Position numbers and translations under genes: made by a program. 64,000 nt of DNA, taken from the NCBI RefSeq assembly GCF_054482595.1, contig NZ_CM137008.1; one strand, given 5' to 3'. Each line of letters opens with the position of its first letter. The first letter of the stretch is position 1. This document shows, piece by piece, positions 58,640 through 58,820 of this stretch. The notes below the pieces were generated by a model that saw only the letters and a program-made list of their open reading frames with translations, was not told the DNA's origin and made no database searches.

Positions 58640-58820
58640 CTTTCTGACAGCAGAAATCATGCCATCTTTTATCAGCGCTTACCCTGCGCTGTAACACAAA
58701 GGCTTAAGTTTCAATGAGTAAAAATGACTCGCTACCCGCAGCAGGCGAGTCATTTTTACTCGTTTATCATGCCAGATTACCCGTCATATCAGCGTTTCAT
58801 CGTTGGCACGGAAGATGCAA
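58640..58820. promoter_or_regulatory. Divergent sigma-54 promoters for zraSR and zraP with ZraR enhancer palindromes
   Basis: TGGCAC-N5-aTGCA at 58804-58819 (+, zraP); TGGCATGATTTCTGCT on the - strand at about 58647-58664 (zraSR); two 17-bp arms GAGTAAAAATGACTCGC (58716-58732) and GCGAGTCATTTTTACTC (58745-58761). Confidence 0.75.

What the first reader, a model, noticed from the sequence alone, without database searches (positions are those of the whole stretch)
58640..58820. Compact divergent sigma-54 control region between zraP and zraSR
Two 17-bp perfectly complementary arms separated by 12 bp sit centrally between outward-facing sigma-54 promoters with GG-N10-GC spacing on each strand. 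This matches the known ZraR-activated zraP/zraSR architecture and confirms the zinc-responsive envelope stress module is intact. Known biology.
Basis: partly seen in the sequence, partly recalled or inferred. Interest (0 to 1): 0.2.

Follow-up and report, generated by a model that had tools for sequence, protein, structure and literature searches.

The report
Known ZraR enhancer between zraP and zraSR
This is the already-characterised E. coli control region in which the zinc/envelope-stress regulator ZraR binds a central palindrome and switches on two outward-facing sigma-54 promoters (zraP and zraSR); it is intact and ordinary here.

Summary
The window is E. coli chromosome. The 237-bp zraS–zraP spacer (58618-58854) is 100% identical to K-12 MG1655. 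The 17-bp arms (58716-58732 and 58745-58761, 12-bp gap) are the only perfect inverted repeat of 14 bp or more in the 64 kb. The two GG-N10-GC elements (58803-58819 on +, 58665-58649 on −) are exactly the motifs under published sigma-54 ChIP-seq peaks for zraP and zraS. The strongest published ZraR ChIP-exo peak maps to 58725-58757, on the palindrome. In vitro selection found this spacer to be ZraR's single high-affinity target. ZraR, ZraS and ZraP all score above NCBIfam equivalog cut-offs. Across six enterobacterial genera and 67 metagenome loci, little is conserved beyond the two promoters and the two arms. The inter-arm spacer varies in sequence but never in length. One refinement is an inference: each arm reads as a complete dimer site, GRGTMA-N3-TKACYC. 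The two sites are 31 bp (about 3 turns) apart, and enhancer-to-promoter distances change in 9-11 bp steps. This is known biology and of low interest. Side observation: the ZraS sensor domain is a sharply divergent allele relative to K-12.

The parts
58649..58665 (-). Sigma-54 promoter of zraSR (ATGGCATGATTTCTGCT; GG 58663-62, GC 58651-50). The predicted start site is 58638, giving a 21-nt leader to the ATG at 58617.
   Evidence: 2 mismatches to consensus. [quoted passage not shown] 58648-58664 is a conserved island across 6 genera.
58680..58687 (.). Conserved TAACCCTG-like block (E. coli TTACCCTG) at about -42 to -49 of the zraS promoter. Its function is unknown and its membership of the control region is tentative.
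   Evidence: 58681-58686 is a conserved island in the 11-taxon alignment. It is also present in metagenome zra loci. There is no counterpart on the zraP side.
58716..58730 (.). Left ZraR site: dyad GAGTAA-AAA-TGACTC, centre 58723. This is -85 from the zraS start site and -107 from the zraP start site.
   Evidence: Conserved across 6 genera except for R/Y changes at 58717 and 58729 and one T-to-C change at 58725 in E. albertii. The ZraR ChIP-exo peak covers its inner half.
58731..58746 (.). Spacer between the two 15-bp dyads (16 bp; 12 bp if the arms are counted as 17 bp). Its sequence is free but its length is fixed.
   Evidence: The spacer sequence differs in every genus and among E. coli strains, but no indel occurs in 11 genomes. 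In the 67 metagenome loci the length was fixed by the search pattern.
58747..58761 (.). Right ZraR site: dyad GAGTCA-TTT-TTACTC, centre 58754. This is -76 from the zraP start site and -116 from the zraS start site.
   Evidence: 58746-58763 is a conserved island. The ZraR ChIP-exo peak_9 maps to 58725-58757.
58803..58819 (+). Sigma-54 promoter of zraP (TTGGCACGGAAGATGCA). The predicted start site is 58830, giving a 25-nt leader to the ATG at 58855.
   Evidence: 1 mismatch. [quoted passage not shown] The Salmonella equivalent is confirmed by ChIP-chip (PMC3844500). Conserved island 58803-58822.
58855..59280 (+). zraP, encoding the periplasmic ZraP (141 aa).
   Evidence: NCBIfam NF008584 equivalog, 274 bits against a cut-off of 200. 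RefSeq annotation of identical DNA.
57241..58617 (-). zraS, encoding the sensor histidine kinase (458 aa).
   Evidence: NCBIfam NF007688 equivalog, 887 bits against a cut-off of 479.
55919..57244 (-). zraR, encoding the sigma-54 enhancer-binding response regulator (441 aa). GAFTGA and Walker A motifs are present.
   Evidence: NCBIfam NF007689 equivalog, 989 bits against a cut-off of 760. Residues 141-441 match PDB 1OJL, ZraR. The motifs are visible in the translation.

Best explanation
This is the ZraR-dependent bidirectional sigma-54 control region of zraP and zraSR. Sigma-54 RNA polymerase sits in closed complexes at two outward-facing -24/-12 promoters, with predicted start sites at 58830 for zraP and 58638 for zraSR. 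When ZraS phosphorylates ZraR (zinc or envelope stress), ZraR bound at the central palindrome assembles into an ATPase oligomer. That oligomer contacts each polymerase by DNA looping and drives open-complex formation. The result is strong zraP induction and weaker positive autoregulation of zraSR. Shown by others on identical DNA: sigma-54 occupancy of both motifs, ZraR occupancy of the palindrome, and ZraR dependence of both transcripts. Inferred here: each arm is a complete ZraR-dimer site (GRGTMA-N3-TKACYC). The two dimer sites lie 31 bp apart, about three helical turns and so on the same face, as at NtrC enhancers. The mirror arrangement lets one enhancer serve both directions. Looping is phase-sensitive, because natural length changes between enhancer and promoters come in steps of 9-11 bp.
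For: Identity and context: the spacer is 100% identical to K-12 and is present in 5420 of 5426 complete E. coli genomes. The three proteins pass equivalog cut-offs. Sigma-54: exact motif matches to ChIP-seq peaks OS38 and OS39; sigma-54 holoenzyme binds this spacer in vitro (PMC8743547); the Salmonella equivalents were confirmed by ChIP-chip. ZraR: ChIP-exo peak_9 maps to 58725-58757, and genomic SELEX found a single target, with 81 of 86 clones from this spacer. Deleting zraR gives zraP -12.7 and zraS -3.2 log2 in zinc. Conservation: the main conserved islands across six genera are the two promoters and the two arms, in otherwise divergent spacers. The inter-arm spacer length is invariant while its sequence is free. 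The arms vary independently at R/Y positions with no covariation. Dimer-site reading: the dyad GRGTMANNNTKACYC has only two perfect matches in 64 kb, which are the two arms. An unrelated NtrC-family locus (L026) carries three such dyads, one a perfect palindrome GGGTCATTTTGACCC. Phasing: the distance from right dyad to the zraP GG is 51.5 bp in Escherichia against 62.5 bp elsewhere. The distance from left dyad to the zraS GG is 59.5/60.5 bp against 50.5 bp in two loci.
Against: The primary DNase footprint paper (Leonhartsberger et al. 2001) is not in the held library. I recall from its abstract 'two inverted repeats separated by a 14 bp spacer', which fits 16-bp conserved arms, but that is memory and not a tool result. 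The ChIP-exo peak spans only the inner halves of the arms, so it does not settle stoichiometry. The zraS promoter match alone is at chance level. Both promoters were flagged 'predicted' rather than 'confirmed' in EcoCyc, according to Bonocora et al.. A second ZraR ChIP-exo peak (58845-58870) is not explained by the model. The 9-bp step on the zraS side is not an exact helical turn. Nothing was tested in this strain.
Confidence: 0.93

Rival explanations
1. The palindrome acts as a nucleic-acid structure (cruciform, or an RNA hairpin or bidirectional terminator) rather than as a protein-binding site.
For: Seventeen perfect base pairs could form a stable stem, and the arms are the only such repeat in the window.
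Against: The repeat lies upstream of both predicted start sites, so neither promoter transcribes it. The terminator scan found none. The stem is AT-rich. Across genera the arms change independently (G·T and C·A oppositions), with no covariation above shuffles: 12 of 17 pairs never vary and the score is reached in 445 of 500 shuffles. ZraR occupies it in vivo.
Confidence: 0.02
2. The enhancer is real, but each 17-bp arm is a half-site. One ZraR dimer (or one subunit pair of a preformed hexamer) bridges the two arms, rather than two dimers each binding one arm.
For: The ChIP-exo peak is a single 33-bp interval between the arm centres.
Against: The arm centres are 31 bp apart. From general knowledge of NtrC-family Fis-like domains, that is too far for the two helix-turn-helix motifs of one DNA-binding dimer. 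Each arm has its own internal dyad GRGTMA-N3-TKACYC. In L026 a third dyad stands alone at a different spacing and is itself a perfect palindrome. Fifteen conserved bases per arm exceed what one helix-turn-helix contacts.
Confidence: 0.15
3. The GG-N10-GC elements are chance matches and the genes are driven by sigma-70 promoters.
For: Matches with up to 2 mismatches are as frequent as in shuffled sequence (37 against 41). Basal zraS expression is ZraR-independent in LB (-0.02 log2), so some other weak promoter probably exists.
Against: No sigma-70-like promoter was found in 58400-59400. Both motifs are occupied by sigma-54 in vivo and in vitro. They are conserved over six genera inside divergent spacers. 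Given the palindrome, two correctly oriented matches within 100 bp on each side have a joint chance of roughly 1e-3 (my estimate from the density).
Confidence: 0.02

Closest known systems
E. coli K-12 zraP/zraSR (hydHG) intergenic region, ZraR (HydG) enhancer (Leonhartsberger et al. 2001; Bonocora et al. 2015, PMC4591121; Choudhary et al. 2020, PMC7657598)
   Same: Identical in sequence over all 237 bp, with the same genes and the same order.
   Different: Nothing differs in the control region. The adjacent ZraS periplasmic-domain coding segment (about 58040-58515) is a divergent allele relative to K-12.
NtrC enhancer at glnAp2 (two dyad sites about 3 turns apart, upstream of a sigma-54 promoter; established knowledge, recalled)
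   Same: An NtrC-family response regulator. Paired dyad sites about three helical turns apart, upstream of a -24/-12 promoter. Activation by oligomerisation and looping.
   Different: The ZraR sites are closer to the promoters (-76/-107 and -85/-116, against about -108/-140). They are mirror copies of each other and serve two divergent promoters. The half-site is GRGTMA with N3, not TGCACC with N5.
AtoC site at atoDAEB: a 40-bp palindrome of two inverted 20-bp sites (PMC3118216)
   Same: AtoC is the closest E. coli paralogue of ZraR by NCBIfam score. Its enhancer is likewise two long inverted copies.
   Different: The AtoC arms abut, whereas the ZraR arms are separated by 12-16 bp. The AtoC site drives one promoter, not two.
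NorR enhancer in the norR–norVW divergent region (PMC2831303)
   Same: A sigma-54 enhancer-binding protein whose sites lie in a divergent spacer next to its own gene.
   Different: NorR needs three sites and only norVW is sigma-54-dependent. ZraR has two sites and both flanking promoters are sigma-54-dependent.

Membership tests
ZraR-activated zraP/zraSR divergent sigma-54 control region | Flanked by divergently oriented zraP and zraS-zraR orthologues. | tested here: met
   NCBIfam equivalog hits above cut-off for all three proteins. RefSeq annotation of identical DNA. The synteny zraR-zraS/zraP/yjaH/hupA holds in 6 genera.
ZraR-activated zraP/zraSR divergent sigma-54 control region | A -24/-12 (GG-N10-GC) sigma-54 promoter facing each gene and occupied by sigma-54. 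| tested here: met
   Motifs at 58803-58819 (+) and 58665-58649 (-). They are identical to the motifs under sigma-54 ChIP-seq peaks OS38 and OS39 in K-12, whose DNA is identical.
ZraR-activated zraP/zraSR divergent sigma-54 control region | ZraR binds the inverted repeat between the promoters. | tested here: met
   Published ChIP-exo peak_9 maps to 58725-58757. Genomic SELEX found a single target in this spacer. The original DNase footprint could not be read.
ZraR-activated zraP/zraSR divergent sigma-54 control region | Zinc-, ZraR- and sigma-54-dependent transcription from both promoters. | not testable with these tools
   Published RNA-seq on identical K-12 DNA gives zraP -12.7 and zraS -3.2 log2 in a zraR deletion with zinc. 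This was not measured for this strain.
Bacterial enhancer (upstream activating sequence) for an NtrC-family protein | Dyad-symmetric sites, usually two or more, 70-150 bp upstream of the promoter, with conserved spacing. | tested here: met
   Two GRGTMA-N3-TKACYC dyads lie 31 bp apart, at -76/-107 and -85/-116. The spacing is invariant in 11 genomes; in the 67 metagenome loci it was fixed by the search pattern.
Bacterial enhancer (upstream activating sequence) for an NtrC-family protein | Helical-phase dependence of activation (looping). | tested here: inconclusive
   Natural indels between enhancer and promoters are 11 bp (zraP side) and 9 bp (zraS side). This is suggestive only; no functional test was possible.
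Intrinsic terminator / structured RNA | GC-rich stem followed by a T-run, transcribed, with compensatory changes. | tested here: not met
   No terminator-like site was found. There is no covariation. The repeat lies upstream of both start sites.

The most novel reading that the evidence does not exclude
The ZraR recognition unit is not the 17-bp arm as a half-site but a 15-bp dyad, GRGTMA-N3-TKACYC. A consensus inner half (GRGTCA) and an A-tract-linked outer half (GRGTAA) are kept asymmetric in every genus. Two such dimer sites lie exactly 31 bp apart. The enhancer tolerates only changes of about a whole helical turn in its distance to either promoter. The same dyad module is also used by at least one non-orthologous NtrC-family two-component system (metagenome locus L026). 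A 2016 Salmonella review lists the ZraR enhancer sequence as 'not known', so a defined consensus would be a modest addition.
Probability: 0.55. Interest if true: 0.25.

Novelty: already known. Interest (0 to 1): 0.1.

Why it matters
It matters little as a discovery. The locus has been a textbook-level example of a sigma-54, two-component, autoregulated envelope-stress module since 2001, and the window copy is identical to K-12. Its practical value is as a positive control for the scan: the first-stage reader correctly recognised a real regulatory architecture from raw sequence. The cross-genus comparison adds a sharper working consensus for the ZraR site and a phasing hypothesis. Both could help people who use the zraP promoter in zinc or lead biosensors.

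Tried and rejected
1. The primary footprint paper (PubMed 11243806) is not held. Full-text searches for the arm sequences and for '14 bp spacer' found nothing relevant. Published ChIP-exo coordinates were used instead.
2. The sigma-70 promoter and terminator scans of 58400-59400 found none.
3. Consensus counting showed that the sigma-54 matches alone are not above chance. The argument therefore rests on conservation and published occupancy.
4. An IHF site (WATCAANNNNTTR) was sought by eye in both enhancer-to-promoter intervals. No good or conserved match was found, so none is claimed.
5. Internal-dyad covariation at positions 2 and 14 of each arm (GAGT/ACTC against GGGT/ACCC) is compensated in some taxa and not in others. 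These are treated as degenerate R/Y positions, not as evidence.
6. The conserved ACACAA at 58695-58700, invariant between Escherichia and Citrobacter, erodes in Salmonella, Kosakonia and Pluralibacter, so it was dropped as a candidate site.
7. The genome-contig scan with ZraP returned only Escherichia and the Citrobacter amalonaticus group. Other genera were obtained through protein hits and their encoding contigs.
8. Two AT-rich metagenome hits (L070, L087) match the 11-bp cores but lack the GRG/CYC flanks and any zra context. They were judged unrelated.

Full report
**What is in the sequence.** The window is E. coli chromosome. zraR (55919-57244, −) and zraS (57241-58617, −) are transcribed leftward. 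zraP (58855-59280, +) is transcribed rightward, followed by yjaH, hupA, yjaG, nfi, hemE and nudC. The zraS–zraP spacer is 58618-58854 (237 bp). Inside it lie two perfectly complementary 17-bp arms, GAGTAAAAATGACTCGC (58716-58732) and GCGAGTCATTTTTACTC (58745-58761), separated by 12 bp. No other perfect inverted repeat of 14 bp or more (loop up to 40) exists in the 64 kb. TTGGCACGGAAGATGCA lies at 58803-58819 on the + strand and ATGGCATGATTTCTGCT at 58665-58649 on the − strand. Both have GG-N10-GC spacing and both point outward.

**Is it more than chance?** The palindrome is, because it is unique in the window. The promoter matches on their own are not. With up to two mismatches to TGGCAC-N5-TTGCW, the window has 37 matches against 41 ± 6 in shuffles. 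Their weight comes from three other things. First, geometry: two correctly oriented matches within about 100 bp on either side of the palindrome have a joint chance of roughly 1e-3, estimated from the density. Second, conservation (below). Third, published occupancy data.

**Transfer of published experiments.** The spacer is 100% identical to K-12 MG1655 (mapping: window = 4260543 − NC_000913.3 coordinate).
- Bonocora et al. list sigma-54 ChIP-seq peaks OS38 (zraP) and OS39 (zraS) with exactly these 17-mers. Their predicted start sites are 25 and 21 nt from the genes, which places them at 58830 and 58638 (PMC4591121).
- Sigma-54 holoenzyme also selects this spacer in vitro (PMC8743547).
- The Salmonella equivalents are ChIP-chip positive (PMC3844500).
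- For ZraR, the strongest ChIP-exo peak (peak_9, signal-to-noise 73, 4201786-4201818) maps to 58725-58757, on the palindrome (PMC7657598 supplement).
- Genomic SELEX found this spacer as ZraR's single high-affinity target, with 81 of 86 clones (PMC8249747).
- Deleting zraR lowers zraP by 12.7 and zraS by 3.2 log2 units in zinc. That matches the better consensus and higher sigma-54 occupancy of the zraP promoter (score 39 against 9).
- The original footprint paper (Leonhartsberger et al. 2001) is not held. From memory, its abstract describes 'two inverted repeats separated by a 14 bp spacer'. That fits the 16 conserved bases per arm seen below.

**Module integrity.** ZraR, ZraS and ZraP score 989, 887 and 274 bits against equivalog cut-offs of 760, 479 and 200. 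ZraR residues 141-441 match PDB 1OJL. The region is present in 5420 of 5426 complete E. coli genomes. The 58-bp enhancer segment is 100% identical in 4356 of 5417 of them. Sampled variants differ only in the spacer, at 58731, or in the flanks.

**Comparative anatomy.** Orthologous spacers were aligned from Escherichia (coli, whittamii, albertii), Citrobacter (five lineages), Salmonella, Kosakonia and Pluralibacter. The spacers are largely divergent. The conserved islands are:
- the zraS promoter (58648-58664);
- a short TAACCCTG-like block (58680-58687);
- the left arm (58716-58730);
- the right arm (58746-58763);
- the zraP promoter (58803-58822);
- the ribosome-binding site and start codon.

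The inter-arm spacer differs in every genus but never changes length in the 11 genomes. The arms change independently at purine/pyrimidine positions (58717, 58729, 58748), giving G·T and C·A oppositions. Covariation is no better than in shuffles. That argues for protein recognition of each arm and against a hairpin or cruciform. The terminator scan is also empty, and the repeat lies upstream of both start sites.

**Refinement (inference).** Each arm reads as its own dyad, GRGTMA-N3-TKACYC. The left arm is GAGTAA-AAA-TGACTC and the right arm is GAGTCA-TTT-TTACTC. All four half-sites are GRGT(C/A)A, with the consensus GRGTCA on the inner side. Only two 15-mers in the 64 kb match this dyad perfectly, and they are the two arms. 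The dyad centres (58723 and 58754) are 31 bp apart, about three helical turns, in every genome examined. A pattern scan of metagenomes returned 71 loci. Of these, 67 are ordinary zraS/zraP spacers, one (L083) is a more distant zraP locus, and two (L070, L087) are unrelated AT-rich repeats. The last locus (L026) belongs to a non-orthologous NtrC-family two-component system, whose regulator is 37% identical to ZraR and scores below the ZraR cut-off. L026 carries three such dyads at the 3' end of its regulator gene: GGGTCATTTTGACCC (a perfect palindrome), then the same 31-bp-spaced pair. These lie upstream of a sigma-54-like TGGCTCGGGTTTTGTAA and a downstream gene. This supports the 15-bp dyad as the unit bound by one dimer. 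By analogy with NtrC at glnAp2 (recalled knowledge), two dimers on the same DNA face would nucleate the active oligomer.

**Phasing.** The distance from the right dyad centre to the zraP GG is 51.5 bp in Escherichia and 62.5 bp (rarely 61.5 or 63.5) elsewhere. The distance from the left dyad to the zraS GG is 59.5/60.5 bp, but 50.5 bp in two metagenome loci. The larger length changes are therefore 11 and 9 bp, about one turn. This is what looping-dependent activation predicts, but it was not tested functionally.

**Open points.**
- A second ZraR ChIP-exo peak (signal-to-noise 34) maps to 58845-58870, over the zraP ribosome-binding site and start codon. The best dyad-like 15-mer there, GATTAACCATGAAAC, has 3 of 12 mismatches. 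I estimate about a 6% chance of such a match in an interval of that size, and its left half is not conserved. Cross-linking through the looped polymerase complex is an alternative explanation.
- The TAACCCTG-like block has no assigned factor.
- No convincing IHF site was found.

**Verdict.** Both the observation and the interpretation stand. Novelty: already known. The refinements (dyad consensus, 31-bp spacing, whole-turn indels, the L026 parallel) are modest, sequence-based inferences.

Noticed in passing
window 58040-58515 (zraS codons ~35-195, periplasmic sensor domain): There is a sharp mosaic here. This segment is only 40-77% identical in DNA to K-12 MG1655 (protein 86% overall, 458 against 465 aa, with the differences confined to the periplasmic domain). 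The rest of zraS, zraR, the spacer and zraP are mostly 92-100% identical. The window's allele is found at 95% identity or more in 4183 of 5426 complete E. coli genomes, so K-12 carries the minority allele. This suggests two old sensor-domain alleles kept or exchanged by recombination.
   Followed up: partly
window 44396-44411 (- strand), inside aceB (ORF 43895-45514 -): A perfect match to the sigma-54 consensus (TGGCACATGGATTGCT) in the sense orientation within malate synthase A. This exact sequence is not among the sigma-54 sites listed in the text of Bonocora et al..
   Followed up: partly
window 58680-58687: A TAACCCTG-like block (TTACCCTG in E. coli), 17-24 bp upstream of the zraS -24 element, is conserved across six genera. 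It has no counterpart on the zraP side and no factor assigned.
   Followed up: partly
window 58845-58870: A second published ZraR ChIP-exo peak (peak_8, signal-to-noise 34) maps onto the zraP ribosome-binding site and start codon. Only a weak (3 of 12 mismatches), unconserved dyad-like sequence, GATTAACCATGAAAC, lies there at 58847-58861.
   Followed up: partly
window 58656-58664 and 58766-58774: There is an exact 9-bp direct repeat, ATCATGCCA. The left copy is part of the zraS -24 element. The right copy sits just right of the enhancer as an orphan -24-like TGGCATGAT on the minus strand with no GC at -12. It is not conserved outside Escherichia.
   Followed up: no
L026 1-3212 (metagenome contig Ga0207913_1000646): A non-orthologous NtrC-family kinase/regulator pair (regulator 37% identical to ZraR) has three ZraR-type dyads (273-287, 289-303, 320-334) overlapping the 3' end of the regulator gene. 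They lie upstream of a sigma-54-like promoter on the minus strand (around 182-198) and a downstream membrane-protein gene starting at 123.
   Followed up: partly
L019 (E. coli WS0115A, NZ_CP035882.1) 1772-2539: A natural deletion removes the 5' part of zraS and most of the control region, including the palindrome. Only 17 bp are left between the zraS pseudogene and zraP.
   Followed up: partly
L083 420-983 (metagenome contig Ga0153950_1017521): A distant zraP-like gene scores 175 bits, below the ZraP equivalog cut-off of 200. It has the same enhancer and the same 62.5-bp distance to a TGGCACGATATATGCA promoter. The zraS-side element has GG-N11-GC spacing, and no zraS-like ORF is visible in the 420 bp on the left.
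   Followed up: no
window 58714-59280 (+): An in-frame ATG at 58714, inside the left arm of the enhancer, opens a 188-aa ORF that extends zraP upstream. Several database entries of 174-186 aa, and a 'hypothetical protein' call in one O157:H7 record, appear to be such over-extended or spurious annotations.
   Followed up: no
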